This document shows, in pieces, positions 8,547-48,312 of a stretch of DNA of 60,407 nucleotides. Under the pieces are notes generated by a model that was not told the DNA's origin, searched no databases, and was given only the letters and a program-made list of their open reading frames with translations. Position 1 is the stretch's first letter; every line of letters begins with the position of its first letter. The translations under genes and the position numbers were made by a program. Source of the DNA: Parcubacteria group bacterium ADurb.Bin115 (lineage in GTDB: Bacteria; Patescibacteriota; Patescibacteriia; Patescibacteriales; UBA12465); NCBI GenBank assembly GCA_002070735.1, contig MWDX01000003.1:1-60407 (forward strand), given 5' to 3'.

Positions 8547-11084
8547 TTAAACCTTGCGCAAATCAGACGCCAGAGCCTCTGTCCGTCTAATAATATCAGC
8601 CTCTACAATTGTTCGGTCTTGACCAAATTTCAAACTGCTCAAAGACCGAATTTTTGCGGAAATACCCTCGCGCTTTACTCCTAGAAGCGGCCAGATTGTT
8701 TTCATAGAAAAGGGCCGGCTAGGACTATTGTCTACCAATAATTTAATATATGCCGTGCCCTTGTCAATATTAATCAAATCATAGACATTAAAAACCGGGG
8801 CAAATTCTTTTACCAAAAACTCCGCATCTTCGGTCCCTATTTTGAAGGCAATTATCGTGCCGACATTACCAAACACGGCATCCTTAATTTCTGTATTATT
8901 ATTTTTAGTCAACTGACCTATATATTGGTGAGCGATAATCAAATTCAAAGCATATTTACGGGCTTCCGAAAGTATCTGACAAATAGAATTAGTGGTAAAA
9001 TTCTGAAACTCATCGATATATAAATAAAAATCTTTACGCGCCTCGGCCGGCATGTCGGTACGAGATAAAGCCGCCATCAAAATTTTACCGACAACAATCA
9101 TCCCTAAAAGATAAGCATTCATTTCCCCAACAACCCCTTTGGGTAAATCAATCAACAAAATCTTTTGCCTATCCATCAAATCGCGAAAATTAAAAGAGCT
9201 CTTCTGCTGACCAATAATCGGTCGCATCATATCGTTGGAAATAAAAGCAGTCAACTTGGAGGTGATATAGGGGACGATATTGGCCAAAGCAGCGTCGCCC
9301 CCCGCCTTTTCCGCTTCCTTTTTCCAAAAATCAATCACCGTGCGGTTATGACAACGAGATAATTTTAAACGGCGGAAATTTTCATCCGATAAAACTTTTG
9401 GTACTTCCATTAAAGTAGAACCGCTCTCCGGGTCATCCATGATTAATAAGAGAGCGTTACGCATATATTGCTCAAACATTGGTCCGCCTGTTTGTTTTAA
9501 ATCATACAATTTATCAAAAATTCCAATCATTTCATTAATCACAAAGCTTTTCTGCTCAGGGTAACGCGGATCATATTCCAATAAATTTAAAGCCAAGGGT
9601 CTCTCTAGGTTGGCTGGAGAAAAAATTACAACATCCTCTACTCTTTCCGGAGGCATGCGCTGTAAAATATCTTCAATTAAATCGCCATGAGGATCAAGGA
9701 CACAAACGCCCTCTCCGTTCTGAATATCCTGGATCGCCATATTGGCCAATAAAACCGATTTACCGACACCGGATTTACCAATGATGTAAGTATGCCGGCG
9801 TCGGTCTTGACGCTTTATCCTGATGTCTTTTTTGACGCCTCGATAAACATTCTGACCTAAAAGTAAGCCCTCACTGGGCAAATCGGCCGGCGCCGGTGCA
9901 TTTTTAGCGGTCAGCCATAAAATATTAGGCGTTTCCATGTGCTTTAAAGGTAGGTGAAAAACACTGGTTAATTCTTCAGTATTTAAGAGAAAAGAATAGT
10001 CTTCGCGGAAACGACGATAGATAAAATCCTTAATTTGCCTTTCTTGTCCGCTTTTAAGGGAGCGAGAAAAATGATTGCCATAACTATAATTATTATATTC
10101 AGTAAAAACACTGGCAACGTTTTCCAAATAGACATTAGCCCGTTCTTTACTTGAGGAAGAAACCACTATCCTAAGATTAACATCAAGTCCGGCGCGCAAA
10201 TTTTTTTCTTCAATAGACTTTACCGTCTCCTCTTCTAAGGCGGAAAGGCGTTTAGACACGGATTCATTCAAATTTTTTGTCTTATTTTTAATACCAGTAC
10301 CAGCTCCTAAAATATCTCTAAAGAATGAAAAAACTTTATATACTCCCCCACCGCTAATACCTTCACGGACAGAATTTTTTTCATGTATCCTTTTAACTAT
10401 ACTCCTAAGCTTTCGATGCCAGGCGCCGTTGGCGCTGCGCACGACATATTGGACGGCAACACTTTCATCCTTATCTAACTTAGACATGATGTTTATTAAA
10501 GAATTAAGCGGATCAACCTCTATTTTCTGATAAGTGCGTAGAGGCAGAGCGAAGTGCTTCTTGGTTTTTAAGGAAGCCGCCACCACCTGGCCGCTCATGC
10601 TAAAAATATTATAATCTTCAATTTCTTCAATTACCGCTTCCGGATAATGAGCCGTAATCTGCTGTTCCAAATACCGCGACAAAGCCCGTGGGGCCACCGC
10701 ATAAAAAGCAATTTTATGATGATTGGCCACGATTTCAAAGGCAAAATGGTCATTACGGCCAAGTAGCCAAGCAGTAAAGCCTCGCTGGGCTTTTAAGCCG
10801 CCGATACTGGCAAAAATTGTTTCTCCTCTGGCAATTTCCTCACGCATCTGCTGTAAGGAAAAATCCTTATTCTCATCTTGAGGCTTCTCTTTGGGCAACC
10901 TGATTAAAAAAACCTGATGATTAAAATAAGCGTTATCCGTGGCAAAACGGCGCACAAAAAAACGGAAAAGAAAAACAAGTCCTACAAGCAAGGCAATGAC
11001 CACCAATAAAAATAAAACAGAAAAAACAACAGCGCCACTATCGCTCTTAGAAAATATAATTAAATTATCTAAAAATGAAGCCAT
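8547..11084 (-). CDS. membrane-anchored VirD4/TraG/HerA-superfamily P-loop ATPase with a ~400-aa N-terminal domain of unknown function
   Basis: It has an N-terminal TM helix. Walker A is GKSGVGKS (nt 9756-9779) and Walker B-like is LYIDEFQNF. The C-terminal half resembles type IV coupling-protein or DUF87-type ATPases. The N-terminal half is paralogous to ORF 45688..47127. Confidence 0.8.
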   Translation of the reverse strand: MASFLDNLIIFSKSDSGAVVFSVLFLLVVIALLVGLVFLFRFFVRRFATDNAYFNHQVFLIRLPKEKPQDENKDFSLQQMREEIARGETIFASIGGLKAQRGFTAWLLGRNDHFAFEIVANHHKIAFYAVAPRALSRYLEQQITAHYPEAVIEEIEDYNIFSMSGQVVAASLKTKKHFALPLRTYQKIEVDPLNSLINIMSKLDKDESVAVQYVVRSANGAWHRKLRSIVKRIHEKNSVREGISGGGVYKVFSFFRDILGAGTGIKNKTKNLNESVSKRLSALEEETVKSIEEKNLRAGLDVNLRIVVSSSSKERANVYLENVASVFTEYNNYSYGNHFSRSLKSGQERQIKDFIYRRFREDYSFLLNTEELTSVFHLPLKHMETPNILWLTAKNAPAPADLPSEGLLLGQNVYRGVKKDIRIKRQDRRRHTYIIGKSGVGKSVLLANMAIQDIQNGEGVCVLDPHGDLIEDILQRMPPERVEDVVIFSPANLERPLALNLLEYDPRYPEQKSFVINEMIGIFDKLYDLKQTGGPMFEQYMRNALLLIMDDPESGSTLMEVPKVLSDENFRRLKLSRCHNRTVIDFWKKEAEKAGGDAALANIVPYITSKLTAFISNDMMRPIIGQQKSSFNFRDLMDRQKILLIDLPKGVVGEMNAYLLGMIVVGKILMAALSRTDMPAEARKDFYLYIDEFQNFTTNSICQILSEARKYALNLIIAHQYIGQLTKNNNTEIKDAVFGNVGTIIAFKIGTEDAEFLVKEFAPVFNVYDLINIDKGTAYIKLLVDNSPSRPFSMKTIWPLLGVKREGISAKIRSLSSLKFGQDRTIVEADIIRRTEALASDLRKV

Positions 11085-11087
11085 AGA

Positions 11088-11564
11088 CTAAAGGTTGCGT
11101 TTTATTTTTAAAATATTATCCGCTTTTATTTTAGCTTCTTGCTCTAAAAAAAATTTATTAACATGGGGAATGAGACCGAGCCAACGCTTGATTAAAGAAA
11201 TTATTTTATCTACCCTAACCTTCGCTTTGTTTAGCAAAAGACTAATTTTATTGGCAGTTTTTTCTCCCTCCTCTTTAAAACGTCGCTGTTCTTCCGGATT
11301 CATCTGCAAAAATACCTGATCCAAGCCAGATGACATAATATTTTCAATTACTTGTAATTGCTGAGATTGGGCGTCGCCACCGCCGGACTTAAGCGAAGTT
11401 GACGCCAAGGACGTAGGCGTGGGAAAAGTCGAAGGTAATTGCTCATTTTTTTTCTCCATCGGTCGAAGCAAAACTTTCTCTTGATTATTTTCAAAAGAAT
11501 TGCCTTCTAATGGCCGATCGGGCGCGCTCGGCGGAGTTTGTTCAATTTTATTCTCACCAGGCAT
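11088..11564 (-). CDS. hypothetical protein (low-complexity N-terminus, helical C-terminus)
   Basis: This 158-aa ORF is 3 nt upstream of the ATPase gene and 2 nt downstream of the ferredoxin ORF, which suggests operonic packing. No recognisable motif. Confidence 0.6.
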   Translation of the reverse strand: MPGENKIEQTPPSAPDRPLEGNSFENNQEKVLLRPMEKKNEQLPSTFPTPTSLASTSLKSGGGDAQSQQLQVIENIMSSGLDQVFLQMNPEEQRRFKEEGEKTANKISLLLNKAKVRVDKIISLIKRWLGLIPHVNKFFLEQEAKIKADNILKIKRNL

Positions 11565-19690: not shown

Positions 19691-21433
19691 TTAAACCATA
19701 TTATCTTTTCTTTCTTTAACATATTTAGTCCATTCTTCTGCAATGTCGACCAAAATTTTAAAGGGAGCTTCAATAATAAAATCAAAGATAAAGATAAAAA
19801 TATTAATCCGCGAAACATTCCTAGAAAGCCATTTACCCGCCATAATAATCGGCATGTAAAAAAGGTCGAGTAAAAAGGAAAACAGGTTTTCTTTCTTTTC
19901 CACCACTAGTAATTCCTTAACGCCACGAGTGACAATAATGCTAAAAAAACTCACAAACGCCAAAAAGAATAGGAAAATAGTAATACTCACCCAATTAAAA
20001 TTAACCTTTGTCAGTGCCCAGATGATAAAATAAATAGAGACAAAGAAAGCAACGCCATAAATAAGGTTAAAAATAAAGTTCATTACCCCTCCCCTTTTCT
20101 TGGGGTTACGCAAAACAATTGGCTGTTGACGTTCCGAGCCGACAAAAGCAATTTCTTTAACACCCTCAACTATCCGGTCGGTGTTGTCGTCCCCGGGAAT
20201 ACGAGTAAAAGAAACAACAAAGAAAAGAAGTATGGCCGGAAAAGAGATGTTGATAGCTAGAGCCACCGGATTTAGGGGTTCGTTAAACCAATGGATGGCC
20301 GGGACTTCTATTAAAAAAACAAAAATAGATTTGGTTAAAAAAATATAAACAATACTGCGTAAAGCCGCTCGCCATAACCTGCTTTTCGCTTTCTTATATT
20401 TCTTATTACAAACTTTACGGACAGAACTAATAAAGGTATTAGGGTTCTGTTTAAATTCATTATAAACTTTAGCCGGATCACCGTCGATTGTTTCCTGCAA
20501 AACAGTAAAATAAAGAGAGTAACGTTGCACTAAACGGTCGAGTTGTTTCTGTAAAGGATGTTTTAATTGATAATCAATGCTCGCCCGAAGATTATTAATA
20601 TTAGAGGCTATCTCCTTAATTTTCTCATCGGCGGGAGCAAACATCGGGTCGATTTTATCTCCAATCCAGCCTTGATTGTAATATTTAAACAAAACAAAAG
20701 AAAGCATATCCGTGTCAAAGCGAGAATAAGTGCGGCTAATACTGAGATAGATCTGAATGTCTAAATCTTGACCATAGGGCAAATCTGGCGGCAACTTCAA
20801 AATACGGCTAAGCGTGTCAAACATAACGTTAACCATCGCTTGCTTGGTTTGATTGCGGATAAGATTTTCTTCTATTTCGCAAGCAGCCAAATTTAAAATC
20901 CAAACGACCAGACGATTTTTTTCCTGGATATCATTTTTAGCCTTATTTAAATCAGTCTTAAGGCCGAAGTCTGAATCGAAGGCCCTTAAACACTCCTGTC
21001 TGAGACGTAAATATTTATTTAAAATATGAGACACCTCCGCCACTTTAGTCTCAGGCAAAGAATTGTTGGGCAGATAGCTGGCTTGTATTAATTCGGATAA
21101 TAGATGCCGAGATAAGTCTTCGGTACTCGGCATTTTTAATAAGCCTTCAATTACTATCTGGCGCTTTAAAATACGCGCGATAGCATTTTTTCTAAGAAGA
21201 TGATCCTCCTTATAATCAACAGTGTTTCTTATTTTTTCATAAAAGAAGGCCATTTTGGAAATCAACTCAGAAACCTGCAAACGAGGCGATTCGTCGTCAT
21301 CATCAACTTTACGGTTTAAATCATTATAAATCGCCTGAAAAAGTTTTTTGGCATTATCGTTTAACTCTTCACTACTGCTTTCAATTTTTTTAGTGACTAA
21401 ATTAGGGCTAACCATATAGATTTTTTCATTCAC
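19691..21433 (-). CDS. large hypothetical membrane protein (soluble helical N-domain plus about 5 C-terminal TM helices)
   Basis: This 580-aa ORF is 2 nt upstream of rsmI. It has hydrophobic segments from about residue 350. I cannot name a family with confidence. Confidence 0.6.
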   Translation of the reverse strand: MNEKIYMVSPNLVTKKIESSSEELNDNAKKLFQAIYNDLNRKVDDDDESPRLQVSELISKMAFFYEKIRNTVDYKEDHLLRKNAIARILKRQIVIEGLLKMPSTEDLSRHLLSELIQASYLPNNSLPETKVAEVSHILNKYLRLRQECLRAFDSDFGLKTDLNKAKNDIQEKNRLVVWILNLAACEIEENLIRNQTKQAMVNVMFDTLSRILKLPPDLPYGQDLDIQIYLSISRTYSRFDTDMLSFVLFKYYNQGWIGDKIDPMFAPADEKIKEIASNINNLRASIDYQLKHPLQKQLDRLVQRYSLYFTVLQETIDGDPAKVYNEFKQNPNTFISSVRKVCNKKYKKAKSRLWRAALRSIVYIFLTKSIFVFLIEVPAIHWFNEPLNPVALAINISFPAILLFFVVSFTRIPGDDNTDRIVEGVKEIAFVGSERQQPIVLRNPKKRGGVMNFIFNLIYGVAFFVSIYFIIWALTKVNFNWVSITIFLFFLAFVSFFSIIVTRGVKELLVVEKKENLFSFLLDLFYMPIIMAGKWLSRNVSRINIFIFIFDFIIEAPFKILVDIAEEWTKYVKERKDNMV

Positions 21434-21821: not shown

Positions 21822-22367
21822 ATGGCTAAACAACTTTTAAATCAAGGACGGCGATGGTACGTTCTTCACACTTATTCTGGATATGAAGAGAATGTCGCCC
21901 AGAATCTGAAACAGAGAGTTGAATCGCTGGATATGGAGGATAAAATTTTTAATATTCTCATTCCGACAGAAAAAAAAATTAAGATTAAAAATGGTAAGCG
22001 CAAGGTCGTAGAAGAAAAGATCTTTCCTGGATATATTTTGGTGGAAATGGAAGTAACCGACGATTCTTGGTACGTCGTGCGCAACACGCCTAATGTCACC
22101 GGTTTTATCGGTACCGGCACCATTCCTACTCCGATTAGCGAAACTGAAGTAAAAGCCCTACAAAAACGCATGGGCGTTGAAGACCCCAAGTTCACAATTG
22201 ATGTGGTTGTCGGTTCTCCAGTTAAAATCAACGAAGGCCCCTTTAAAAACATGGAAGGCAAAGTTACCAGCATCGATGAAGCCAAGGGTAAAGTTAAAGT
22301 TTCGGTTTCCATGTTCGGACGCGAAACTCCTATTGAACTCGATTTTCTCCAAGTTAAAAAATCTTAA
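21822..22367 (+). CDS. nusG: transcription termination/antitermination factor NusG
   Basis: It has the NGN domain (WYVLHTYSGYE) and a KOW motif (GSPVKINEGPFKNMEGKV). Confidence 0.95.
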   Translation: MAKQLLNQGRRWYVLHTYSGYEENVAQNLKQRVESLDMEDKIFNILIPTEKKIKIKNGKRKVVEEKIFPGYILVEMEVTDDSWYVVRNTPNVTGFIGTGTIPTPISETEVKALQKRMGVEDPKFTIDVVVGSPVKINEGPFKNMEGKVTSIDEAKGKVKVSVSMFGRETPIELDFLQVKKS

Positions 22368-22432
22368 TTAATCAAGCCGCCGCGCCCGCTTCTAGCGCTA
22401 AAGCTTAATCATTTAAAGACTGAATTAAAGAT

Positions 22433-22858
22433 ATGGCTAAAAAAATAAAAACAAAAATTAAATTACAAATTGCCGGCGGCCAAGCCAATCCAGCGCCACC
22501 AGTCGGTCCGGCTTTAGGCCAGCACGGCTTAAACATTGCCGAGTTCTGTCAAAAATTCAATGAAGCTACCCGCGATAAAATGGGCGATATCATTCCGGTA
22601 GAAATTACTGTTTATGAAGATAGAACTTATAACTTCATCCTTAAAACTCCGCCCGCTTCCGAATTATTAAAAAAAGCCGCCGGTATCAAGAAAGGCTCCG
22701 GCCAGCCCCGCTTAGACAAAGTTGGTCAAATCACTAAAGCACAATTAGCCGAAATCGCTAAAGTTAAGATGCCCGACCTCAACGCTCGCGATTTGGACGC
22801 CGCGATGAATATCATTGCCGGCACCGCCAGACAAATGGGCGTAGAAATTAAAGATTAA
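22433..22858 (+). CDS. rplK: 50S ribosomal protein L11
   Basis: [26 protein letters not shown] is the canonical L11 sequence. Confidence 0.97.
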
Positions 22859-22871
22859 TTATTTAATAATT

Positions 22872-22912
22872 GTGGGAGTCCTGGCAATTAAAGCCGGACG
22901 TTAACTCACCAC
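22872..22912 (+). promoter_or_regulatory. candidate L1-binding stem-loop upstream of rplA
   Basis: GTGGGAGT (22872-79) pairs with ACTCACCAC (22904-12), leaving a bulged A. An inner helix pairs CUGGC with GCCGG. This gives an asymmetric-loop helix with a GGGAG element 10 nt before the rplA start. Confidence 0.3.
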
Positions 22913-22922
22913 GACAAAAAAT

Positions 22923-23639
22923 ATGTCAAAAAAAGAAGAAAAAAAAGTGGCTGCGCCCGTAACTAAAAAAAAGGCTAAAGATTTTTCCGCTATTTATGAT
23001 CACCTTAAAGCCTATCCCTTAGAAGAAGCGATTAGCCTCGTAAAAAAATTAAATAAGACTAAATTCGACCCCTCTTTGGAAGTGCATATTCGCTTGGGCA
23101 TCAACCCGAAAAAAAGCGAACAGCAAGTACGCGGCGCCGTCAGTCTGCCCCACGGTACTGGCAAAAGCGTCAGAGTGGCCGCCTTCGTTTCTCCGGCCAA
23201 TGAAGCTGCTTGTAAGGCGGCCGGAGCGGAATTTGTCGGCGGCGATGAACTCATCGCTGAAATCAAGAAAACAGAAAAAACTGAATTCGAGGTAGCGATT
23301 GCCGAACCTTTAATGATGAAAAATTTGGCTGCTATCGCTAAAATTTTAGGTACTCGCGGCCTAATGCCCTCCCCTAAGAATGACACCGTCTCCCCCACTC
23401 CGGCAAAAGCGGTAGAGGAATTAAAAAAAGGAAAAATAAGCTTTAAAAATGACGATACCGGCAACCTCCACACTGTTATCGGTAAGCTCAGTTTTGATGA
23501 CAAGAAATTGGCGGAAAATTTTCAAACCTTAATGGAAACTATCCGCAAGGCCAAACCGGCCACCGCTAAAGGCTCATATATTAAGAATATTGCCATTTGC
23601 TCTTCAATGAGTCCCAGCGTGAAAGTCGTTATCTCCTAA
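22923..23639 (+). CDS. rplA: 50S ribosomal protein L1
   Basis: It carries RLGINPKKSEQQVRG.VSLPHGTGK, has typical L1 length and lies downstream of rplK. Confidence 0.96.
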   Translation: MSKKEEKKVAAPVTKKKAKDFSAIYDHLKAYPLEEAISLVKKLNKTKFDPSLEVHIRLGINPKKSEQQVRGAVSLPHGTGKSVRVAAFVSPANEAACKAAGAEFVGGDELIAEIKKTEKTEFEVAIAEPLMMKNLAAIAKILGTRGLMPSPKNDTVSPTPAKAVEELKKGKISFKNDDTGNLHTVIGKLSFDDKKLAENFQTLMETIRKAKPATAKGSYIKNIAICSSMSPSVKVVIS

Positions 23640-39906: not shown

Positions 39907-41910
39907 TTATTCTACTCGTCCATTATTAGAAAAACCGGCAATTTCATCGTCTTCAAGCTTACTGGTCTTAGCTTTGGTCTTATAACTTATCCTGCCGCCA
40001 GTCAAAGAATCAAGCGCTGTGACCGTGCTACCGGGAGAAATTACTAAAATTTTATCGCGATCACTATCTTTAGGGATAAAACTGATATTAAACTCGGCAT
40101 CAGCGCGATACACAGAAATAGGCAAAAAACCCAAACGCCAAGTAACTTGATTACTCTCGGCATCATAGGTGATACTACCGACATTAGTATTTTCCCCGCC
40201 TGACCATTCCAGCCCTTGAGGTAAATCTAAAACTACTTGGACATCGCTCAAATCATGTAAATTATTTTTTAGAGTCCAAAAAACTCTCACACTAGTCTTT
40301 TCGCCGACTCGAGGCGGCAATGGACCAGAACCCACCGGGATATTATCTTCGTTAAAATACAAAATCTTTTCACTCAATGACAAATCACTATTTATTTGCC
40401 CCTTGATGGTATTACTCCGATTATCTTCAGAAGCGCCCTCTTGGTTATTATTTAAACCATATTGAGCATAACTCGTGATACTAGTGTCAACGCCTAAATC
40501 GGAAACGGAAAAATTACGTAATTTTAAAGAAAAATCTATTTTACCGCTGGCGCCAGGAGTCAATTCAGACAATGATGGCAACTGCTCTTTAGTCCAGACA
40601 ATCGCGTCGCCGGCAACACTGCCGCCCAGAGGGTCGCGCAAAGAAGACCAATCAACAAAATCACCTTTAATAACAGCCATTAAAGCGACGTCATCAAGAG
40701 TAGCCTCACCATTATTAGCATACTCTAATTGATAAGATAAGGTGTCACCAAAATTTAAAGTCTGATCTGTCTTAGAACCGTTTAAAGTAAGGCTTAAATT
40801 TAAATCGCTCTTAATAGCCTCAAAAGATATAGTCTTTTCCCATAAAGACATCTCCCGGCCGTCGGCCTCTCTTTTTATCAAGCGCAAACTTAAATCTTCT
40901 TTATCCTGATTCTTGGTCTTTAATGTAAAATCGATAGCTATCGTTATCTTCTCCTCAGAATCTGCCGGCAAACCGGACAAAAACCAAGAGTTCTCACCGG
41001 TATTCTGAATTTTAAAAACATCAGCAGCCGCGCCCTCTGACTGATTATTTTCGGACACGAGTTCGCCCTTCTCTGAAGAGACTTGATTGACGATAAAATT
41101 ATCTGAGCCGGAAATTTTTAGATAAAGATCGGATAGCTTATTATTTTTAAAGGCGTTCAAAAACAACTTCATTTCATTGTTTTGACCAATAATAGCTGTA
41201 TTAAGATAATCGGCGCTGACGATAAAGCCCAAACCGGAGACTACCGTATTCGCGCTGGCCTCCTTCTTAAACTCACTGGAAAAATTGGCCGGCACATAAG
41301 ACAAGCGGGCGCTAACCACATTAGCGGAATCAACTGGCGAGTTTAAATAACCGCTAATGACAACTAGTCCGCTACCGCCAATAGCGATATCGCCAAAACT
41401 CCAGGTATTAATGCCGGAAGGAGCGGGCACGCTTTCAGTAATTATAAAATTTGACGGCAAAAGCACCTCTAACTTAGCGTTACTTAGGGCTAAACCGCTA
41501 TCATTACTGTAGGTAATATTATAAGATATTGGTTCTCCGGCCAAAGCTTTCTCTGGGGCTTGTACTGTTAAAATAATGGCACTAGTACCGGCGGGACGCT
41601 GAAAATAGTAATAATATCCCGCATAGAGTCCGCAAGCTAAAAGAGTGAGAATAAAAACTTGTTTAAATAAAACTAACAAACGCAAACGGTGTCTTTTCTG
41701 GACTCGGCTAACATCAACTAGACGTCCCTGCTTGTCGTGATAAATAGCAGAAAGATTATTTTCCACCTCTTCAGCGGCTGCTTCTTTTTTTACCGCCTCT
41801 TCAAAGCGGGAAACTTCTTCAACGGCCGGTAAAGGTCTTTCTAAAAAAGTCTTTAAACCAGAATCCTTATCTGCGGAAGATGTTTTTTTCTTTTTTTTCA
41901 AGACTGTCAT
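39907..41910 (-). CDS. large membrane-anchored surface protein with beta-rich repeat (DUF11-like) domains
   Basis: It has one TM helix (FILTLLACGLYAGYYYYF) after a charged N-terminus, and repeated segments such as Y.I.Y.N.G...L.N. Its C-terminal module is shared with ORF 2704..3780. Confidence 0.7.
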   Translation of the reverse strand: MTVLKKKKKTSSADKDSGLKTFLERPLPAVEEVSRFEEAVKKEAAAEEVENNLSAIYHDKQGRLVDVSRVQKRHRLRLLVLFKQVFILTLLACGLYAGYYYYFQRPAGTSAIILTVQAPEKALAGEPISYNITYSNDSGLALSNAKLEVLLPSNFIITESVPAPSGINTWSFGDIAIGGSGLVVISGYLNSPVDSANVVSARLSYVPANFSSEFKKEASANTVVSGLGFIVSADYLNTAIIGQNNEMKLFLNAFKNNKLSDLYLKISGSDNFIVNQVSSEKGELVSENNQSEGAAADVFKIQNTGENSWFLSGLPADSEEKITIAIDFTLKTKNQDKEDLSLRLIKREADGREMSLWEKTISFEAIKSDLNLSLTLNGSKTDQTLNFGDTLSYQLEYANNGEATLDDVALMAVIKGDFVDWSSLRDPLGGSVAGDAIVWTKEQLPSLSELTPGASGKIDFSLKLRNFSVSDLGVDTSITSYAQYGLNNNQEGASEDNRSNTIKGQINSDLSLSEKILYFNEDNIPVGSGPLPPRVGEKTSVRVFWTLKNNLHDLSDVQVVLDLPQGLEWSGGENTNVGSITYDAESNQVTWRLGFLPISVYRADAEFNISFIPKDSDRDKILVISPGSTVTALDSLTGGRISYKTKAKTSKLEDDEIAGFSNNGRVE

Positions 41911-41999: not shown

Positions 42000-44489
42000 T
42001 TATTTCTCCAATAAAACGGCCCGCATTACGTCTCTATCTAGGGATAGGTTGCCATTCCAAGAAGATTGATTAGGATAGTTCCAGATCTGCCGCCAGCCGG
42101 ATGGAGCCGTAATTTCCAAGTCAACACTAGTAGCCTTAGCGCCTGGCTGTTTTTGCAACAATAAAGAGAAGGGGAAACGTTCGCCGGGAGCTTTATCCAA
42201 TAAAGAGCCAAGTCGGGTGAGCCAATCGCCGCCACTGACGTCGGCCTCCGCCTCCAAGCGAAAAGGCAAACGATAGCGTAATTTTATCTCCACTGTTTCC
42301 CCCGGATCAACCATTACCCAATTAGCAAAAACGGTTTTTCCATTTTCTTTATAAATCTTAGTGCCGCTTACTAAATCGGTCAAAGCGAGTTCTTCGGTTT
42401 CAGCGATTAAAGGAAATTTTTCCCAACCCTCCTCCGGCTTTTCAAAATAAGAAGCGTCGGGAGCGCGAAAACCGCGGGCTTCTAATAATTGGCTACCAGC
42501 GGGTACATATACCCTTAACCAATCAACATTCCGGACACCGCTCAAAATTTCATTTTTCAAGCCAGTATGAGTACGAGTAATGGTAAGGGTGTCGATTAAG
42601 CTGCGGTCACTAAGAATCTGAACGGAATGTTTAACCTCATCAAGCATCTTGCGATCACTTTTCTGGCCGGCAATATTGGTGTGGGCAATAAGAAGATAAT
42701 CATGCTGACTCGGCAACATCGCTCCGTCAAAACCATAACGCGCGGCTTTTGCCTGTAACAAAGGATCGGAAAAATACAGCATGATATTTTTAGAACTGAG
42801 ATTCTTTTCCAAGGCGGTTATAAGTAAAGGAAGATTTTCAAAAGTTAATATTCTGGGTAGGCGGTCTATAATCTCCGCCATTAAATCGCCAATAATTTTC
42901 TTGGGTTGATTCTTGGGGCTATCAGGTAAATTAGCCACTTCTTCTGGATGGGTTTTTATTAAATTTTCTTTTTCCACTGTCGCTTGAATCAAATCCCAAA
43001 AATTATCAGCATCAATAGTTAGACCATATTCGGCTTGCATATCAATCGGTCCGGTAATTTTTAGTAAATCAGATAAAACATCGGGAGTGAAACTAATCAC
43101 CCCATCAACGGTTGGACCGCCGCTTTTTTCATAAAACCACATCAAGGAACGAGCGCTGGTGGGCCAATCCGGCCACCAATTGGCATCCCAAAAATACCAG
43201 CGCGGACTCACTAACCATAAAGGTTGGGGGGATTGGATAAAATTTTTCATACCCGCCTCAGTGTCGTAGGATCCGCCAGCTGGCACTTCCAAACGACGAA
43301 TCCGGCCCTCACGGATATCGACCAGTGCATAACTACCCAAAAATCCACCAGACCCCCTCATTTCCGCATTATTTTGAAACACCAATAAATAGCGCTTATC
43401 TCGACTCACTCCTAAAAAATCTTTAATTTCTTGAGCTGAGCCCAGTAAAGAGCGCAGTGAAGAAACCGCGATTTCGGCTTGATCGCGAAAATCGATAAAT
43501 TGACTCCGATATTCCTCTGGTAAAGTATCGACATCAATATTATCAAGTTGACGTTGTAGCTCCTCGGCATCAATTAAAGCCTGCTGTCCAGGTTCAATAA
43601 AAGAATCAATCAAGCTTCCCCAATTCTTATCAGCGCTTGTTTGTAATAAGATATTTCCCGCTTCACTTAAATGCTCACCCATCGCAGCGGCCGCCTGACC
43701 GGCCGCTAAAAATTTATTTCCAGAAGAAGCCAATTTGATTTTAGGATCACCAGAAAAAGAAGCGAACGACAACAACCAGTCGTCAATCCTACTTAATTCC
43801 GCCTGAGCCGAGATAAAATCACTCTCCGCTTTAGCAAAATTAGAGGCGGCAGCGCTAAAATCTAATTGCGCCGCCCCGTCGGAAGCGGCCGCTAAATTAT
43901 TTAAAGCGGATAAAGAACGGTCAATCACACCAGCCTGTAAACTTTTGATGTCCAAAATTTTTAGATAAGACAAAATTTTAAAAGGCAAAATGATAATTAT
44001 TAAAACGGACACAAAAACAAAGAGAGACCGGTACCAAGAAACAAGATGCTCCGCTTGGGATAAGCGGGCGTTTGTTTTTGATTTCTCTTTTTTGAGGCGA
44101 CGCCAACGCACACCAGCGGCGGCGGCAAACAAGCGACGCTCTCTCTTATTAAAACGAGAACCGCGGAGATAATGTGAGCGCGAAATACGGAAATGACGGC
44201 GCTTCTTTGCCTGAAAATTAAAAAAATGACGTAGAGAAAAAGAAGAATTTTTACTGGGCGAGACTAAGTTCGAATTAGATTTGAAAAAAGATAGAGTAGC
44301 CGCATACGGCGGTCGACGAAAAGAAAATATTCTTTTAAATTTTTGCCAATTAATAAAAGCAATATTAACCGGCTTTTGGCTCTCTGAAAGTTTTTTCTGA
44401 CCAGAGGGGCGCAAATCCACGATAAAAGAGTCGACTGCCGACAAATTACGCTTTATATTAGATTTTTTTATATTTTCCCGATTCATCAA
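42000..44489 (-). CDS. DUF4012-like membrane-anchored protein
   Basis: It has a basic N-terminus, one TM helix, a helical region, then LLVFQNNAEMRGSGGFLGSYALVD, which I recognise as characteristic of DUF4012. It is 8 nt downstream of the GT4 gene. Confidence 0.75.
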   Translation of the reverse strand: MMNRENIKKSNIKRNLSAVDSFIVDLRPSGQKKLSESQKPVNIAFINWQKFKRIFSFRRPPYAATLSFFKSNSNLVSPSKNSSFSLRHFFNFQAKKRRHFRISRSHYLRGSRFNKRERRLFAAAAGVRWRRLKKEKSKTNARLSQAEHLVSWYRSLFVFVSVLIIIILPFKILSYLKILDIKSLQAGVIDRSLSALNNLAAASDGAAQLDFSAAASNFAKAESDFISAQAELSRIDDWLLSFASFSGDPKIKLASSGNKFLAAGQAAAAMGEHLSEAGNILLQTSADKNWGSLIDSFIEPGQQALIDAEELQRQLDNIDVDTLPEEYRSQFIDFRDQAEIAVSSLRSLLGSAQEIKDFLGVSRDKRYLLVFQNNAEMRGSGGFLGSYALVDIREGRIRRLEVPAGGSYDTEAGMKNFIQSPQPLWLVSPRWYFWDANWWPDWPTSARSLMWFYEKSGGPTVDGVISFTPDVLSDLLKITGPIDMQAEYGLTIDADNFWDLIQATVEKENLIKTHPEEVANLPDSPKNQPKKIIGDLMAEIIDRLPRILTFENLPLLITALEKNLSSKNIMLYFSDPLLQAKAARYGFDGAMLPSQHDYLLIAHTNIAGQKSDRKMLDEVKHSVQILSDRSLIDTLTITRTHTGLKNEILSGVRNVDWLRVYVPAGSQLLEARGFRAPDASYFEKPEEGWEKFPLIAETEELALTDLVSGTKIYKENGKTVFANWVMVDPGETVEIKLRYRLPFRLEAEADVSGGDWLTRLGSLLDKAPGERFPFSLLLQKQPGAKATSVDLEITAPSGWRQIWNYPNQSSWNGNLSLDRDVMRAVLLEK

Positions 44490-44497
44490 TTTTAAAA

Positions 44498-45688
44498 TTA
44501 TTCTACTAATATCTTACGATATATTTCTAAAGTTTGGCGCGCACATTTCTGCCAGCTAAAAACATTAACTCTTTTTAAACCGCGCGCTATCAATTGTTGG
44601 CGGTAATCTTCATTTTCAAATAAAAATTCTAATTTAGATAACATATCCGCTTGGTTATAGGGATCAAAATAAAGAGCGGCATCACCAATAACTTCCGGCA
44701 AACTAGCCTGATTAGAAGAAACAACCGGACAAGAATGACTCATTGCTTCTAAAGGCGGCAAACCAAAACCTTCATATAAAGAAGGAAAAACATAAAATAA
44801 AGCCCGGCGATACAACACGGCTAAATCGGCATCAGGAACATATCCCGGAAAAATAACTTTATTATTATCACCACCTTCGCTTTGCCAAAGCGATAGGGCG
44901 GACGCCTTTTCCTTAACACGATGATAAAAATAATCGTCTTTACCCACCATTACCAACTTGAGATGATGATGGCGGGAAAGCAAATTATTAAAGACAGTCA
45001 GCAAAACTTCTAAATTTTTATGAGGATAAGCGTTGCCCACATATAACAAAAAGGGTTCGCTAATCCGATAACGTTGTAAAACTTGTTTCTCCTCTATTTC
45101 GCCAATAATTTCTTTTTTGTCTAAGTCCGCTACCCCTTCGTAAGTAACAAATAATTTTTTAGGATTAGCCTTAAACTTTTTGATAATATCTCTACGGGTA
45201 AATTCAGAAACGGTAATTATGGCTCGGGCTCGCCTTATAGCCGTTCTAATGACCAAGCGATAGGCGGCTTGCTTAAACCAATAAAAAGCTGCTGGGAGCA
45301 TTGAGGCGCGGCGACTGGAGAAACGGGTTAGTATTAAATCATGAATAGTGACGACAAAGGGCACCGGGGTCAATATGGGGACATTGAAATGGGGAAAGTG
45401 GACCAAATCTAACTTTTCTTTTTTTAAAATCAAAGGAAAAAATAATTGCTCCCGCCATGAATACCAACGCCAAGGAACTTCTATTTTGCGAACATTGGGA
45501 TGGCTAGACTTAAAATCTTTAAAATTATCCGGACTCAAAAAAATAACATATTCAAATTCACTGCTAGTGACGGTCATCGATACGATATTATCAACCACTT
45601 CTTGAACATAACGCCCCAAGCCCTTACCTAGAGGACCATAAAAACGAGCATCAATACCGATTCTTTTTTTTGTTTTCTTATTAAACAT
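44498..45688 (-). CDS. GT4-family (GT-B fold) glycosyltransferase
   Basis: It has the EX7E-type motif region FPSLYEGFGLPPLEAM. Its start overlaps the upstream stop (TAATG). Confidence 0.9.
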   Translation of the reverse strand: MFNKKTKKRIGIDARFYGPLGKGLGRYVQEVVDNIVSMTVTSSEFEYVIFLSPDNFKDFKSSHPNVRKIEVPWRWYSWREQLFFPLILKKEKLDLVHFPHFNVPILTPVPFVVTIHDLILTRFSSRRASMLPAAFYWFKQAAYRLVIRTAIRRARAIITVSEFTRRDIIKKFKANPKKLFVTYEGVADLDKKEIIGEIEEKQVLQRYRISEPFLLYVGNAYPHKNLEVLLTVFNNLLSRHHHLKLVMVGKDDYFYHRVKEKASALSLWQSEGGDNNKVIFPGYVPDADLAVLYRRALFYVFPSLYEGFGLPPLEAMSHSCPVVSSNQASLPEVIGDAALYFDPYNQADMLSKLEFLFENEDYRQQLIARGLKRVNVFSWQKCARQTLEIYRKILVE

Positions 45689-47127
45689 TAAACAAATGGT
45701 AAATTATCAGGCACATTCTGTTTTTCTTCTTCCTTTATATGATTTTTACTCTCGCTCTGTGATTGACTAGTCGCGCTATGCAAAATTTCCACACTGAATG
45801 GTTCCAATAAGGGAGCGGCCATATCATTAACTATCGGCAAAGTAGAAGGGGCATCCGCTTTTCTGCCAGGAGCTTTCTGAATTAACGGCGCCTTGACATT
45901 AGCTTCTATCGGGAAATGCCATAGAGTTGCCAATTCCTCAATATTATATAAACCAGGATTGCGCCCCGCCGTATCTTCTCTGGCGATATAATTAGCCATA
46001 ATCGCATTCTTTTTGCGTAGCAGGCGCTTATCTTTATTAAAATAAGCAGTTTTAGTCATTGTCAATTTAACATCCGGCTTTAGATTGTTTAAATCAAGAG
46101 AAGCAAACTGTTTCATATAGCCAATTACACCGTTTACCACCTTATTCTTGTTCATTAAATCTTTACGAGCCACATAAACTACGCGAATTTTTGCCTCGAA
46201 AGATAGTTTTGCGGCTTTTAAATGGATGGCCTCTATCTGCCTCTTCTGCTTAGGTGTAAGTTCTTGCATTGATAAGCCCTTATCTTCGGTGGACTTGCTT
46301 TCAATATCGCCCCAGATACTATAAATAGCTTCGCTGATATTGCCCAGCCATTCCACAAATTTAGAAGCGGCACTTGATTGTTTTTTCTTCTTGCCTAAAA
46401 TTTTATCAACCACCTTATCCGTTTCTGCCACCCAATCAAAACCTATGGGAATAATCACCAGTTGCATCCATAACTGCTCGCCTTCCCGCAAAGAACTGCA
46501 CAAATCCATTAAAGATGCCATCGGATCTTTAAACTGCGTTTCCGATTCGCCAAAATTATGTTCAAATTCCTGATAAAGCTTAATGGGAAAGGCCCAATTG
46601 TTAGACTGTATGAATTCTGCCCCCCAAACATCATAATCCTCATCCGGAAAATGATGAGGAACAGTATCAACATAATCATCAACCTCGGAAATCTCGGCAT
46701 CAGGATATTGGGAATAGACAGACGTTTCAATTAAATCACGAAATTCAACGGGCGTCCTAATTAAAAATTGAGTATAACCCTCAATGCTAACAATTTCGTA
46801 ACTGAAGGAGACCTGAAATTTACCCTCAAACCATTTTTCAAAAAAATTAGTAGAACCATGAGCGCCGGCTAAATAGCTAAACATGTTCTCGGCGGCTTTA
46901 GGCGATTGTTCATTACCCTTCGGAATATCGATTGCCAGAAGGATAAATTGCAAATTCTTGGCCGCCCACTGAGATCTGATTTTTTGAAGATAAATTAAAG
47001 AGATGCCATATAACAAAACAGCGGCAATAACCATCCAGCCGATATTAATAAAAAATACCCACAGCATCTGATCAGCTGGCAAAGCGAAAAAGGCGTCCAA
47101 TCTGGAAGTATTAATCGTAATTTCCAT
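45688..47127 (-). CDS. membrane protein paralogous to the N-terminal domain of the 845-aa ATPase (no NTPase domain)
   Basis: It has one TM helix near the N-terminus. Collinear similarity to ORF 8547..11084 includes QYPDAEISEVDDY vs HYPEAVIEEIEDY and YNIEELATLWHFP vs LNTEELTSVFHLP. Confidence 0.7.
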   Translation of the reverse strand: MEITINTSRLDAFFALPADQMLWVFFINIGWMVIAAVLLYGISLIYLQKIRSQWAAKNLQFILLAIDIPKGNEQSPKAAENMFSYLAGAHGSTNFFEKWFEGKFQVSFSYEIVSIEGYTQFLIRTPVEFRDLIETSVYSQYPDAEISEVDDYVDTVPHHFPDEDYDVWGAEFIQSNNWAFPIKLYQEFEHNFGESETQFKDPMASLMDLCSSLREGEQLWMQLVIIPIGFDWVAETDKVVDKILGKKKKQSSAASKFVEWLGNISEAIYSIWGDIESKSTEDKGLSMQELTPKQKRQIEAIHLKAAKLSFEAKIRVVYVARKDLMNKNKVVNGVIGYMKQFASLDLNNLKPDVKLTMTKTAYFNKDKRLLRKKNAIMANYIAREDTAGRNPGLYNIEELATLWHFPIEANVKAPLIQKAPGRKADAPSTLPIVNDMAAPLLEPFSVEILHSATSQSQSESKNHIKEEEKQNVPDNLPFV

Positions 47128-47196: not shown

Positions 47197-47230
47197 GAAA
47201 ACAAAAACCGCTGCAGCGAGCGCAACGGTT
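47197..47230 (-). terminator. rho-independent terminator after the sigma-region-4 protein gene
   Basis: On the minus strand, AACCG, loop, CGGTT is followed by TTTGTTTTCTT. Confidence 0.5.
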
Positions 47231-47268: not shown

Positions 47269-48312
47269 TTAAGCATTTTGCCATTCTCTTAAACCATACA
47301 TTCCTCGACCGGTTAAGACATAGCGTTCATCAAGAATTAATTCATTATGAACAGTCGCTGGATTGGCATTCTTATGGTCAAATTTTATCTCATTAATTTT
47401 AGAAGCAATTTCTGTAAAATGAAGTGGCTTACCAGCATTCTTTAAGACTAAATAAATCTTATCATTAATGGTTTTCGGTTTAATTTCCTGCCAATCAGCC
47501 TTACCCCAATAACCAAATTTATTGCGCTCCAAATCTTTCAGCGCCTGCATTAAGGAGTATAAAGTCTTATTACTGTTGATAATCTCGGCCTTATCAGGAA
47601 AAATCTGACTTTTAAAAATCGGGGTGATGTCAGCGCTATTATTTGCCTCCAGCTTATCCTGATACTGGGAATAGGAATCCAGGCTCTTAAGCAATGACAG
47701 AACGCCTTCAGTATCAAACGTCTTATTCAAAGATTCAAGTTTTGATAATAAATCCTTAGATAATTTTTCAAAATGCTCTAAAGACTCTTCCTTAAGCTTA
47801 ACCGACGCATTAAAATTACTGGAGTCGGGCATTAAATCAAAATCATCATCAAGAAGTTTGGATAAGATAAAATTAAAACGATTTTTGTAAACCTGCCTAT
47901 TCTTTTCATATTCAGCGCTATTAATGTCGACATCATTGTTCATTTCTAAACTCATCACGGTTAAAATATCAAGTAAAAAATCGCGTCTCAATAAACCACC
48001 ATGCTCCTTTAATAACTCCTCAACTACACTCTTTAAAGTCACTAGATAATTACTTAAATTATCCAAACGTTTGATTTTTTTGATGCTTGCGTTTTCAATC
48101 TGGCGAACCCTTTCCCGAGTCAGTTTATGAAGCTGACCAATCTTCTCCAATGTTTCATTTTTATCACCATTTAAACCAAAACGCCTAGTCAAAATATCAC
48201 GCTCTCTGTCCATTAAGTCGGAGAACAAACTATTGACTATTTGAATCGCATTCAATTTAGATAATTCCTCACTACGCTTATCGCGCACAATGCTTTCTAA
48301 AAAATTATCCAT
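47269..48312 (-). CDS. DNA-binding protein with sigma-70 region 4 HTH (N-terminal) and HARE-HTH-like domain (C-terminal)
   Basis: ETLEKIGQLHKLTRERVRQIENASIKKIK matches the sigma region 4.2 signature. The C-terminus (IYLVLKNAGKPLHFTEIA...DERYVLTGRGMYGLREW) resembles the RNAP delta/HARE-HTH fold. Regions 2 and 3 are absent. Confidence 0.75.
   Translation of the reverse strand: MDNFLESIVRDKRSEELSKLNAIQIVNSLFSDLMDRERDILTRRFGLNGDKNETLEKIGQLHKLTRERVRQIENASIKKIKRLDNLSNYLVTLKSVVEELLKEHGGLLRRDFLLDILTVMSLEMNNDVDINSAEYEKNRQVYKNRFNFILSKLLDDDFDLMPDSSNFNASVKLKEESLEHFEKLSKDLLSKLESLNKTFDTEGVLSLLKSLDSYSQYQDKLEANNSADITPIFKSQIFPDKAEIINSNKTLYSLMQALKDLERNKFGYWGKADWQEIKPKTINDKIYLVLKNAGKPLHFTEIASKINEIKFDHKNANPATVHNELILDERYVLTGRGMYGLREWQNA

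What the first reader, a model, noticed from the sequence alone, without database searches (positions are those of the whole stretch)
45688..47127. Standalone paralog of the ATPase N-terminal domain, lacking the NTPase module
The 479-aa protein aligns collinearly with residues ~1-400 of the 845-aa ATPase (nt ~9870-11084). Both have a TM helix near the N-terminus, and three motif pairs match. LLAIDIPKGNEQSP aligns with FLIRLPKEKPQDE. SQYPDAEISEVDDY aligns with AHYPEAVIEEIEDY. YNIEELATLWHFPIEANVKAP aligns with LNTEELTSVFHLPLKHMETP. The paralog stops exactly where the P-loop domain begins in the longer protein. A domain of unknown function that occurs both fused to a translocase-type ATPase and free in a glycosyltransferase operon suggests a modular membrane adaptor. 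This links the two loci functionally.
Basis: seen in the sequence. Interest (0 to 1): 0.7.

Follow-up and report, generated by a model that had tools for sequence, protein, structure and literature searches.

The report
Orphaned membrane anchor of split ATPase
The 479-residue protein really is a free-standing copy of the N-terminal domain of the 845-residue secretion-type ATPase, but in most related bacteria this free form sits directly in front of its own separate ATPase gene, so here it looks like the membrane-anchor half of a two-part motor that has lost its neighbouring ATPase gene.

Summary
ORF A (45688-47127, minus strand, 479 aa) is homologous to residues ~18-403 of ORF B (8547-11084, 845 aa): BLASTP E=1e-14, profile-profile E=1.2e-30. 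The match survives removal of the TM helix. Both proteins carry Pfam PF26449 (DUF8128), so databases already record the homology; no paper I searched mentions the family.

- A is not derived from B. Trees of the DUF8128 domain and of the ATPase domain agree: B-type fused proteins form one clade. A-type free proteins nest inside a second fused lineage ("C-type", 930-1133 aa).
- In 55 of 75 informative metagenomic loci, A-type genes are followed within a few bases by a TM-less ATPase ("S") that is 44% identical to B's ATPase.
- A and C share a conserved upstream sigma-region-4/HARE-HTH gene. B has a different conserved partner, a 158-aa protein.
- The GT4-DUF4012-DUF11 neighbourhood is confined to one derived clade (Falkowbacteria-like, class ABY1).

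The fold resembles the VirB4 N-terminal domain. Best reading: A is the membrane anchor and docking half of a fissioned coupling-protein-like ATPase. Which ATPase it serves in this genome is unresolved.

The parts
45688..47127 (-). ORF A, 479 aa: free-standing DUF8128 (PF26449) protein of the A-type subfamily
   Evidence: (P0001, 100% identical, carries PF26449)
46978..47070 (-). A residues 20-50: single N-terminal TM helix. Basic residues follow it (QKIRSQWAAK), so N-out/C-in topology is inferred and the domain is cytoplasmic.
   Evidence: long helix 18-58; hydropathy
45835..46956 (-). A residues ~58-431: DUF8128 core homologous to B ~55-403. It is an alpha/beta fold whose best solved-structure matches are full-length VirB4 chains. 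It ends with ADAPSTLP, the counterpart of the EPPxNLP junction motif of fused proteins.
45712..45834 (-). A residues 432-472: variable, acidic linker predicted with low confidence
   Evidence: pLDDT below 50 for 412-473
45691..45711 (-). A residues 473-479, PDNLPFV: C-terminal PPxNLP-type motif and a second copy of the junction motif. It is invariant in the window's clade (60/60) and present in 47/52 ATPase-adjacent and 13/13 GT4-adjacent A-types.
47269..48312 (-). Upstream partner gene, 347 aa: sigma-70 region 4 HTH (31-81) plus a C-terminal HARE-HTH like that of the RNAP delta subunit. It is conserved directly upstream of A-type genes and of C-type fused genes.
   Evidence: (48 of 67 loci)
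47206..47230 (-). Terminator-like hairpin (10-bp stem followed by a T-run) between the sigma-r4/HARE-HTH gene and A
   Evidence: consensus scan only
44498..45688 (-). GT4 glycosyltransferase. Its ATG overlaps A's stop codon (TAATG). It occupies the position held by the ATPase gene in most other lineages.
   Evidence: (79 of 80 related genomes)
42000..44489 (-). DUF4012 protein, 829 aa, part of the clade-specific downstream block
39907..41910 (-). DUF11-repeat protein, 667 aa, part of the clade-specific downstream block
9867..11084 (-). ORF B residues 1-406: TM helix (8-49) plus a B-type DUF8128 domain, predicted with high confidence (pLDDT ~85-95). It ends in the PAPADLP junction motif (residues 397-403).
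8547..9866 (-). ORF B residues 407-845: coupling-protein/HerA-type P-loop ATPase. Walker A is GKSGVGKS at 436-443 and Walker B is YLYIDEFQ at 687-694.
11088..11564 (-). 158-aa gene directly upstream of B. It is conserved in front of B-type genes in close and distant genomes and is B's own partner, distinct from A's.
   Evidence: (48% identity, E=5e-29)

Best explanation
ORF A is the membrane-anchor and docking half of a gene-fissioned, coupling-protein-like (T4CP-like) ATPase system that is widespread in Patescibacteria.

The ancestral form is a single fused protein (C-type): TM helix, DUF8128 domain, EPPxNLP junction, then a FtsK/HerA-superfamily ATPase. It is encoded behind a sigma-region-4/HARE-HTH DNA-binding gene. 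In many lineages this gene split into an A-type protein (TM + DUF8128 + linker + C-terminal PPxNLP motif) and a soluble, TM-less 'S' ATPase that usually carries a C-terminal CxxC zinc ribbon.

Inferred mechanism. A sits in the membrane with its DUF8128 domain in the cytoplasm. That domain has a fold like the VirB4 N-terminal domain. A tethers or assembles the ATPase ring at the membrane through the domain and the flexible PPxNLP tail. The sigma-r4/HARE-HTH partner would supply DNA recognition.

In the window's clade the ATPase gene next to A has been replaced by GT4-DUF4012-DUF11, but A and its tail motif remain under strong purifying selection. My estimates for this genome: A still serves an S-type ATPase encoded elsewhere (~0.4), it serves B (~0.25), or it serves no ATPase (~0.2).

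Shown: the homology, the fission, the two arrangements, the conserved partners, the topology logic and the conservation. Inferred: physical docking, the role of the tail, and DNA as the substrate.
For: Family and homology:
- Homology to B and membership of PF26449.
- The family is large: 6502 clusters at 50% identity with E<=1e-3. Of the top 150, 109 are free A-type with no ATPase, 34 are fused B-type, and a fused group of 930-1133 aa scores between the A and B profiles.

Gene arrangement:
- In L087 a distant A-type (33% identical to A) is followed 12 bp later by a 643-aa ATPase. It is 44% identical to B residues 408-831 and starts exactly where B's DUF8128 domain ends.
- 55 of 80 diverse loci show A followed by the ATPase on the same strand with a median gap of ~6 bp.
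- 41 of 44 complete S ATPases lack any TM-like segment and 34 of 44 have a CxxC...CxxC motif. 65 of 74 A-types have an N-terminal TM segment.

Phylogeny and partners:
- NJ trees of the two domains are congruent: B clade, then a C-type grade, then split A/S. The GT4-adjacent A-types, including the window's, form one nested clade.
- C-type fused genes have the same sigma-r4/HARE-HTH gene directly upstream. That gene lies upstream of A in 48 of 67 loci.
- The junction motif EPPxNLP is conserved in all fused forms and occurs twice in A.

Structure:
- The top 10 Foldseek PDB hits for A are all TrwK/VirB4 (best E=1.4e-4, probability 1.0).
- B matches full-length VirB4 over ~750-960 alignment columns (E=2.8e-9). 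It matches coupling proteins only over ~340 columns.

Conservation: 401 species-level genomes carry close relatives, and the tail motif is invariant in 60 of 60.
Against: - No S-type ATPase was found in the window or in the 10 kb beyond each end of it in related contigs. None lies within +/-10 kb of A in 80 related genomes. In this clade the proposed partner is therefore unobserved.
- Foldseek TM-scores are low (0.2-0.3) and the residue ranges aligned to VirB4 are not reported. The VirB4 N-domain resemblance is fold-level only, and no sequence-level match exists.
- The trees are NJ without bootstrap support.
- A's stop codon overlaps the GT4 start codon (TAATG). This is compatible with a new, envelope-related role.
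Confidence: 0.6

Rival explanations
1. In this genome A works in trans with B. It would form mixed DUF8128 assemblies with B's own N-domain or dock its PPxNLP tail on B's ATPase, coupling the envelope/glycosylation locus to the B motor.
For: - A and B lie on the same contig in the window, and nine further contigs are inferred (matching contig lengths) to carry both.
- B's ATPase is 44% identical to the cognate S ATPases.
- A keeps its tail motif although no S gene is nearby.
- The B ortholog KKT13178.1 is the only high-coverage t4cp1 hit listed for the Falkowbacteria genome GW2011_GWF2_43_32, which has the window's arrangement.
- Solved VirB4 entries include a dimer and a trimer of dimers (entry titles). 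From my own recollection, not tested here, those contacts involve the N-domains.
Against: - B already has its own TM anchor and DUF8128 domain and its own conserved 158-aa partner.
- The A and B domains are only ~22% identical and belong to different deep clades.
- The two genes are ~35 kb apart with unrelated housekeeping genes between them.
- The same genome has a second T4CP-like hit, KKT12989.1 (t4cp2), of unknown type. It could be a relocated S.
Confidence: 0.2
2. Repurposing. In this clade A lost its ATPase and was co-opted as a membrane scaffold for the downstream GT4, DUF4012 and DUF11 envelope or surface-glycosylation genes, independent of any ATPase.
For: - A's stop codon overlaps the GT4 start codon (TAATG), which suggests translational coupling.
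- The order GT2, sigma-like gene, A, GT4, DUF4012, DUF11 is kept in 79 of 80 genomes for GT4 and 73 of 80 for DUF4012, and in all 13 metagenomic loci of the clade.
- rmlA/rmlD, mur and PBP genes lie upstream.
Against: - These genomes are broadly syntenic over more than 20 kb, so adjacency says little.
- Two clade members have ~1 kb inserted between A and GT4 (L119, L135).
- The features shared with ATPase-linked A-types, namely the tail motif and the sigma-r4/HARE-HTH partner, are fully retained.
- GT4/DUF4012 adjacency is absent from every other A-type lineage.
Confidence: 0.13
3. A is the TrsD-type accessory of the Patescibacteria type IV secretion system, that is, a standalone homologue of the VirB4 N-terminal region that works with VirB4.
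For: - A's best solved-structure matches are VirB4.
- TrsD is described as remotely homologous to the VirB4 N-terminus and is abundant in Patescibacteria (PMC12102498).
Against: - hhalign of the DUF8128 profile against pGO1 TrsD finds nothing (probability 0.1%).
- tblastn with pGO1 TrsD/TrsE and a Bacillus VirB4-like protein found no match in the window or in any A-type locus held at the time (L001-L080, L083-L170).
- In GW2011_GWF2_43_32, which has the window's arrangement, the paper's TrsD is gene 573, next to VirB4 (gene 572). By my own estimate from gene counts, A lies roughly 30 genes from B (gene 190) on that contig, far from VirB4.
- A has no Pfam hit to TraC_F_IV or CagE_TrbE_VirB.
Confidence: 0.04
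4. A is a decaying remnant of a fused gene and has no function.
For: The ATPase gene normally paired with A is absent from the locus.
Against: - The ORF is intact and 56-89% identical across the 80 retained loci from 401 matching species genomes, with more than 100 invariant residues including the C-terminal motif.
- No ATPase remnant lies downstream.
Confidence: 0.03

Closest known systems
Pfam PF26449 (DUF8128)
   Same: A, B and their homologues all carry precomputed PF26449 hits. UniRef names a B ortholog 'DUF8128 domain-containing protein'.
   Different: The family has no assigned function and no paper in the searched library mentions it. The split versus fused subfamilies, the partner genes and the VirB4-like fold were worked out here.
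Orphan VirD4-like coupling proteins (T4CP) of Patescibacteria (Quinonero-Coronel et al. 2025, PMC12102498)
   Same: B's ortholog KKT13178.1 is listed there as a T4CP (profile t4cp1, 90.9% coverage) not encoded near virB4. B passes the Pfam cut-offs for TrwB_AAD_bind, T4SS-DNA_transf and TraG-D_C.
   Different: None of the passages of that paper I read or keyword-searched mentions the N-terminal domain, the free A-type proteins or the sigma-r4/HARE-HTH partner. A has no ATPase and such profiles would not detect it.
VirB4 (TrwK of R388) N-terminal domain
   Same: VirB4 gives the best solved-structure matches for A. B matches it over its full length, giving the same two-domain layout of N-domain plus ATPase.
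   Different: There is no sequence-level similarity. TM-scores are low. B's ATPase matches coupling-protein families rather than VirB4 families by sequence. No VirB3/6/8 genes are nearby.
TrsD/TraD of pGO1 (standalone homologue of the VirB4 N-terminal region in MPF-FATA systems)
   Same: The concept is the same: an ATPase-less protein related to the N-terminal part of a secretion ATPase and encoded beside that ATPase, as A-type proteins are beside S in most lineages.
   Different: No profile similarity. TrsD pairs with VirB4, whereas A-type proteins pair with a T4CP-like ATPase. TrsD is 227 aa and A is ~480 aa.
DUF8128-like domain plus ATPase proteins of Bacillus plasmids and phages (for example the 885-aa 'DUF87 domain-containing protein' of B. 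subtilis plasmid NZ_CP154917.1, and phage G gp156)
   Same: They align with B end to end: E=4e-44 for the plasmid protein and E=7e-42 for phage G gp156. On the plasmid the gene sits beside Replic_Relax, TcpC, TcpE and VirB4-like genes, that is, in the coupling-protein position.
   Different: They are encoded on mobile elements and the plasmid protein has no N-terminal TM helix. The Patescibacteria genes are chromosomal, sit among housekeeping genes and are membrane-anchored.

Membership tests
Pfam PF26449 / DUF8128 | Significant match to the family HMM | tested here: met
   Precomputed PF26449 hits on P0001 (100% identical to A) and P0192 (100% identical to B), and on genes in L083, L087, L169 and L170. 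The local Pfam copy lacks this model, so A has 0 hits there.
A-type (split) DUF8128 subfamily | No NTPase module, N-terminal TM helix, C-terminal PPxNLP motif | tested here: met
   A has no P-loop, a TM segment at 20-50 and ends in PDNLPFV.
A-type (split) DUF8128 subfamily | sigma-region-4/HARE-HTH gene directly upstream | tested here: met
   Window gene 47269-48312. The same pairing is seen in 48 of 67 loci and with C-type fused genes.
A-type (split) DUF8128 subfamily | Stand-alone S-type ATPase gene immediately downstream | tested here: not met
   The downstream gene is GT4. No S-type ATPase lies in the window or within 10 kb of either end of it. 55 of 75 informative loci elsewhere have it.
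Type IV coupling protein (VirD4/TrwB/TraD) | P-loop NTPase domain with Walker A and B motifs matching T4CP family models | tested here: not met
   Not met for A, which has no NTPase domain. Met for B: PF10412 32.1 bits vs cut-off 20.5, PF02534 25.9 vs 20.1, PF12696 24.8 vs 22, and TrwB in the PDB at E=1e-6.
Type IV coupling protein (VirD4/TrwB/TraD) | Encoded with a relaxase and/or mating-pair-formation genes | tested here: not met
   tblastn with Gram-positive VirB4 and TrsD queries found nothing in the window, and no relaxase family was found among the window ORFs scanned. B lies between dnaX and CTP synthase.
VirB4 N-terminal domain / TrsD | Sequence match to VirB4 N-terminal families (CagE_TrbE_VirB, TraC_F_IV) or to TrsD | tested here: not met
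   No Pfam hit at E<=1. PDB profile search found no VirB4. hhalign against pGO1 TrsD gave probability 0.1%.
VirB4 N-terminal domain / TrsD | Same fold as the VirB4 N-domain | tested here: inconclusive
   The top 10 Foldseek hits are all VirB4 (E 1.4e-4 to 2.5e-2, probability 0.63-1.0). TMq is only 0.27-0.32, rmsd is above 10 A and the aligned ranges are not reported. B gives E=2.8e-9 over its full length.
VirB4 N-terminal domain / TrsD | Adjacent to virB4 | tested here: not met
   tblastn with two Gram-positive VirB4 queries found no match in the window or in any A-type locus held at the time (L001-L080, L083-L170). In GW2011_GWF2_43_32 the listed TrsD is next to VirB4, at a different place from A.
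Known anti-phage defence systems (PADLOC) | Match to a defence-system component model | tested here: not met
   A has 0 hits. B and S give only generic ATPase hits (mad8 ~1e-14, HerA).

The most novel reading that the evidence does not exclude
Patescibacteria carry two ancient, chromosomal, membrane-anchored motors related to coupling proteins, and both operate independently of the type IV secretion system. One is B with its 158-aa partner. The other is the sigma-r4/HARE-HTH gene with DUF8128 and its ATPase, either fused or split. Each is built on a VirB4-like N-domain.

In the Falkowbacteria-like clade the split system's ATPase was lost. The orphaned anchor A was retained and rewired. It would either recruit B in trans through its PPxNLP tail or couple a DNA- or substrate-handling ATPase to an envelope glycosylation operon. 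That would be an ATPase-less adaptor linking two otherwise separate machines.
Probability: 0.15. Interest if true: 0.7.

Novelty: new variant of a known kind. Interest (0 to 1): 0.45.

Why it matters
Nearly every Patescibacteria genome encodes about two 'orphan' coupling-protein-like ATPases whose role is unknown (5,713 in 2,918 of 3,035 genomes; PMC12102498).

This work shows that at least one of the two listed types (B-type, profile t4cp1), together with the related C/S-type ATPases, belongs to DUF8128-linked systems. These systems have defined partner genes, a VirB4-like N-domain and a clear fusion/fission history. That gives concrete and testable pairs: A with S, the sigma-r4/HARE-HTH protein with A, and the 158-aa protein with B. 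It also gives a natural 'experiment', the clade in which the anchor survives without its adjacent ATPase gene.

For annotation, A-type proteins should be read as the N-terminal half of a split ATPase, not as a glycosyltransferase-operon protein. The Bacillus phage homologues labelled 'lipid A export/MsbA' appear to be misannotated.

Tried and rejected
- **TM or low-complexity artefact.** Rejected by the TM-less shuffle control.
- **A derived from B by truncation.** Rejected by congruent domain trees and by different partner genes.
- **A = TrsD.** hhalign is negative, there is no VirB4 neighbour, and the literature table places TrsD elsewhere.
- **Defence system.** PADLOC finds nothing for A.
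- **RNA features.** No tRNA and no Rfam hit in the window.
- **Solved-structure relatives by sequence.** None for A.
- **Literature on DUF8128/PF26449.** Zero papers.
- **Does the window's clade encode an S-type ATPase elsewhere?** Not settled. I extended the context 10 kb beyond both window ends and found none. I mapped B's ortholog to accession KKT13178.1, which is the 't4cp1' hit in the paper's Table S3. The second T4CP-like hit in that genome (KKT12989.1, t4cp2, 61% coverage) could be a relocated S, FtsK or something else. Looking up ten C-type clusters for accessions present in the stored part of Table S3 found none. Profile counts (349 t4cp1, 166 t4cp2) and one page of the table did not settle it.
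- **Short contigs.** Three look-ups of distant A-types landed on contigs too short for full context: L085 and L086 showed no neighbours, and L088 showed only the start of the downstream ATPase.
Full report
**1. The observation**

ORF A (45688..47127, minus strand, 479 aa) and ORF B (8547..11084, minus strand, 845 aa) are as described.
- BLASTP gives one collinear alignment, A44-431 to B60-403, at 22% identity and E=1e-14.
- Profiles built from 60 A-family and 55 B-family sequences align with probability 99.85% and E=1.2e-30 over 366 columns.
200 shuffles give 16.1 +/- 2.3 bits.
- Each protein has one N-terminal hydrophobic helix followed by basic residues. B has no TM-spanning helix between that helix and its cytoplasmic ATPase (the only other hydrophobic stretch, 655-675, lies inside the ATPase), so the shared domain must be cytoplasmic.

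One refinement is needed. A's homologous region ends at about residue 431. A ~40-residue low-confidence linker and an invariant C-terminal PDNLPFV follow.

**2. What the domain is**

The local Pfam copy finds nothing in A. The precomputed annotations of the big protein collection place PF26449 on every A homologue and on the N-terminus of every B homologue. UniRef names it DUF8128. No paper in the library mentions DUF8128 or PF26449.

B's C-terminal half passes the Pfam cut-offs for TrwB_AAD_bind, T4SS-DNA_transf, DUF87 and TraG-D_C, and matches TrwB in the PDB.

AlphaFold models (A: pLDDT 68; B N-domain: pLDDT ~85-95) show the same order of strands and helices.
- Against solved structures, A's ten best hits are all TrwK/VirB4 of plasmid R388 (best E=1.4e-4).
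- B matches full-length VirB4 over ~750-960 columns (E=2.8e-9). It matches coupling proteins (Cag-beta, DotL) only over ~340 columns.
- TM-scores are low (0.2-0.3) and there is no sequence-level link.

I call the fold 'VirB4-N-domain-like' and treat it as a lead, not as membership.

Against predicted viral structures, A matches large Bacillus phage proteins far better (E=6e-15). B aligns end to end with phage G gp156 (E=7e-42) and with an 885-aa protein of a B. subtilis plasmid (E=4e-44). On the plasmid that gene sits beside Replic_Relax, TcpC, TcpE and a VirB4-like ATPase, which is the coupling-protein position of a Gram-positive conjugation module.

**3. Family structure**

A profile search of 1.84 billion representatives finds 6502 clusters with E<=1e-3 and 1639 with E<=1e-30. 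I scored the top 150 against separate A-domain, B-domain and ATPase HMMs.

| Group | Count in top 150 | Features |
|---|---|---|
| A-type | 109 | Free, ~420-600 aa, no ATPase; nearly all end in PPxNLP[FIVT] |
| B-type | 34 fused, plus 6 ATPase-less proteins that look like fragments | ~820-860 aa |
| 'C-type' | about a dozen | Fused, 930-1133 aa; domain 28-29% identical to A, whereas B-type is 22-25% |
| A-like domain fused to an ATPase | 1 (P0448) | 862 aa |

**4. The decisive context result**

A distant A-type (P0429, 33% identical to A) sits between a sigma-70-region-4/HARE-HTH gene and a separate 643-aa ATPase. That ATPase is 44% identical to B residues 408-831 and begins where B's DUF8128 domain ends.

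A metagenome scan with a diverse A-type alignment returned 80 loci, 32-51% identical to the lead sequence:

| Downstream of A | Loci |
|---|---|
| ATPase gene, same strand, median gap ~6 bp | 55 |
| Window-like GT4-DUF4012-DUF11 block | 13 |
| Something else | 7 |
| Contig too short to tell | 5 |

Other results from these loci:
- 41 of 44 complete 'S' ATPases have no TM-like segment and 34 of 44 carry a CxxC...CxxC motif. 65 of 74 A-types have the N-terminal TM segment.
- The sigma-r4/HARE-HTH gene lies directly upstream of A in 48 of 67 loci. It also lies directly upstream of both C-type fused genes I looked up.
- NJ trees of the ATPase domain and of the DUF8128 domain agree: a B-type clade, then a C-type fused grade, then P0448, then split A/S. 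All GT4-adjacent A-types, including the window's, form one clade nested among ATPase-adjacent ones.

A is therefore the N-terminal half of a fissioned C-type protein, not an offshoot of B. The glycosyltransferase neighbourhood is a single derived rearrangement.

**5. Junction and tail**

All fused proteins read ...K..EPPxNLP..(8-12 aa)..h.hG.TNFR..DRRRH.Y.IGkTGxGKS. A keeps the junction motif (ADAPSTLP, residues 425-431) and has a second copy at its extreme C-terminus after the flexible linker.

That tail motif is present in 47 of 52 ATPase-adjacent A-types, in 13 of 13 GT4-adjacent ones, and in 60 of 60 members of the window's clade. I infer that it is a tether for the ATPase. This was not tested.

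**6. B is a separate system**

B-type genes are preceded by a conserved ~158-aa gene (48% identity between distant genomes, E=5e-29) and lie near dnaX. They are not preceded by the sigma-like gene.
- A and B co-occur on the same contig in the window. Nine further contigs are inferred (matching contig lengths) to carry both.
- 401 species genomes carry close A relatives, and the 80 loci kept from them show GT4 adjacency in 79.
- These genomes are syntenic over more than 20 kb, so adjacency within the clade is weak evidence of function.

**7. Link to the literature**

Quinonero-Coronel et al. 2025 (PMC12102498) report 5,713 VirD4-like coupling-protein homologues in 2,918 of 3,035 Patescibacteria genomes. 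Most are far from virB4, and the authors consider them possibly exapted. They also report TrsD, a standalone VirB4-N-terminus-like protein that usually sits next to VirB4.

B's ortholog P0226 is accession KKT13178.1, which is the 't4cp1' hit (90.9% coverage) of Falkowbacteria GW2011_GWF2_43_32 in their Table S3. That genome has the window's arrangement around A. Its TrsD is next to VirB4, so A is not their TrsD. It also has a second T4CP-like hit (KKT12989.1, t4cp2, 61% coverage) whose type I could not establish.

**8. What remains open**

No S-type ATPase is in the window or within 10 kb of either end of it. I cannot decide whether A here serves a relocated S, serves B, or has been repurposed with the GT4/DUF4012/DUF11 genes, whose first member overlaps A's stop codon (TAATG). 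A's strong conservation, including the tail, argues that it is functional and that its binding partner persists.

**9. Verdict**

The homology is already captured by a Pfam DUF. The interpretation needs revision: A is the anchor half of a split coupling-protein-like ATPase system with its own partners, orphaned in this clade. Interest is moderate. It is not a new kind of system, but it clarifies a ubiquitous and unexplained Patescibacteria gene set and yields sharp tests.

Noticed in passing
window 11088-11564 (-): A 158-aa protein with no family hit is encoded 3 bp upstream of B. It is conserved in front of B-type genes in distant genomes (48% identity over the C-terminal 84 residues) and is probably B's dedicated partner.
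   Followed up: partly
window 11754-12734 (-): A 326-aa Cys-rich ORF (CCQ...CSECGK at the N-terminus) with no Pfam hit lies between the B operon and CTP synthase. The syntenic locus L083 has ribosomal protein L27 and a small ferredoxin at this position instead, so this may be an insertion or a mobile gene.
   Followed up: partly
window 47206-47230 (-): A terminator-like hairpin (10-bp stem followed by TTTGTTTTCT) lies in the 141-bp gap between the sigma-r4/HARE-HTH gene and A. It could separate or attenuate their transcription.
   Followed up: no
window 45686-45690: A's stop codon and the GT4 start codon overlap (TAATG), which suggests translational coupling in this clade.
   Followed up: yes
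L134, L145, L159, L167 (metagenome loci): A small A-type subclade lacks the C-terminal PPxNLP motif and also lacks an adjacent ATPase. In L167 the ATPase lies 6.7 kb downstream. This may be a second, independent uncoupling.
   Followed up: partly
L087:4162-6093 and 34 of 44 complete S-type ATPases: The stand-alone ATPases paired with A-type genes carry a long, basic, probably disordered C-terminal region with a CxxC-x17-CxxC zinc ribbon (TIGR04272). B lacks it.
   Followed up: partly
phage records GU568037.1, OR096218.1, KT070868.1; BFVD S5MSQ0: Bacillus and Geobacillus phage homologues of B (DUF8128-like domain plus ATPase) are annotated 'lipid A export ATP-binding/permease protein MsbA'. This looks like a misannotation.
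   Followed up: partly
window 1-60407: Almost every gene in the 60 kb lies on the minus strand; only 21822-23639 is on the plus strand. The content is housekeeping (dcw cluster genes, tRNA synthetases, enolase, pyruvate kinase), so both loci are chromosomal and not on a mobile element.
   Followed up: partly
window 19691-21433 (-): A 580-aa ORF has no Pfam hit. A 574-aa gene with no Pfam hit occupies the same position in L083.
   Followed up: no
L172:1984-9115 (just beyond the window's right end in a related contig): A cluster of HTH, RadC, NYN, N6_N4 methyltransferase, DUF3644 and DEAD/ResIII/SWI2_SNF2 genes looks like a restriction-modification or defence island next to the cysS-dus-mraZ region.
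   Followed up: no
window 8547-11084 and L087:4162-6093: Both B and the S ATPase hit the PADLOC model mad8 (mads_8) at about 1e-14 to 1e-15. This is probably generic ATPase similarity.
   Followed up: no
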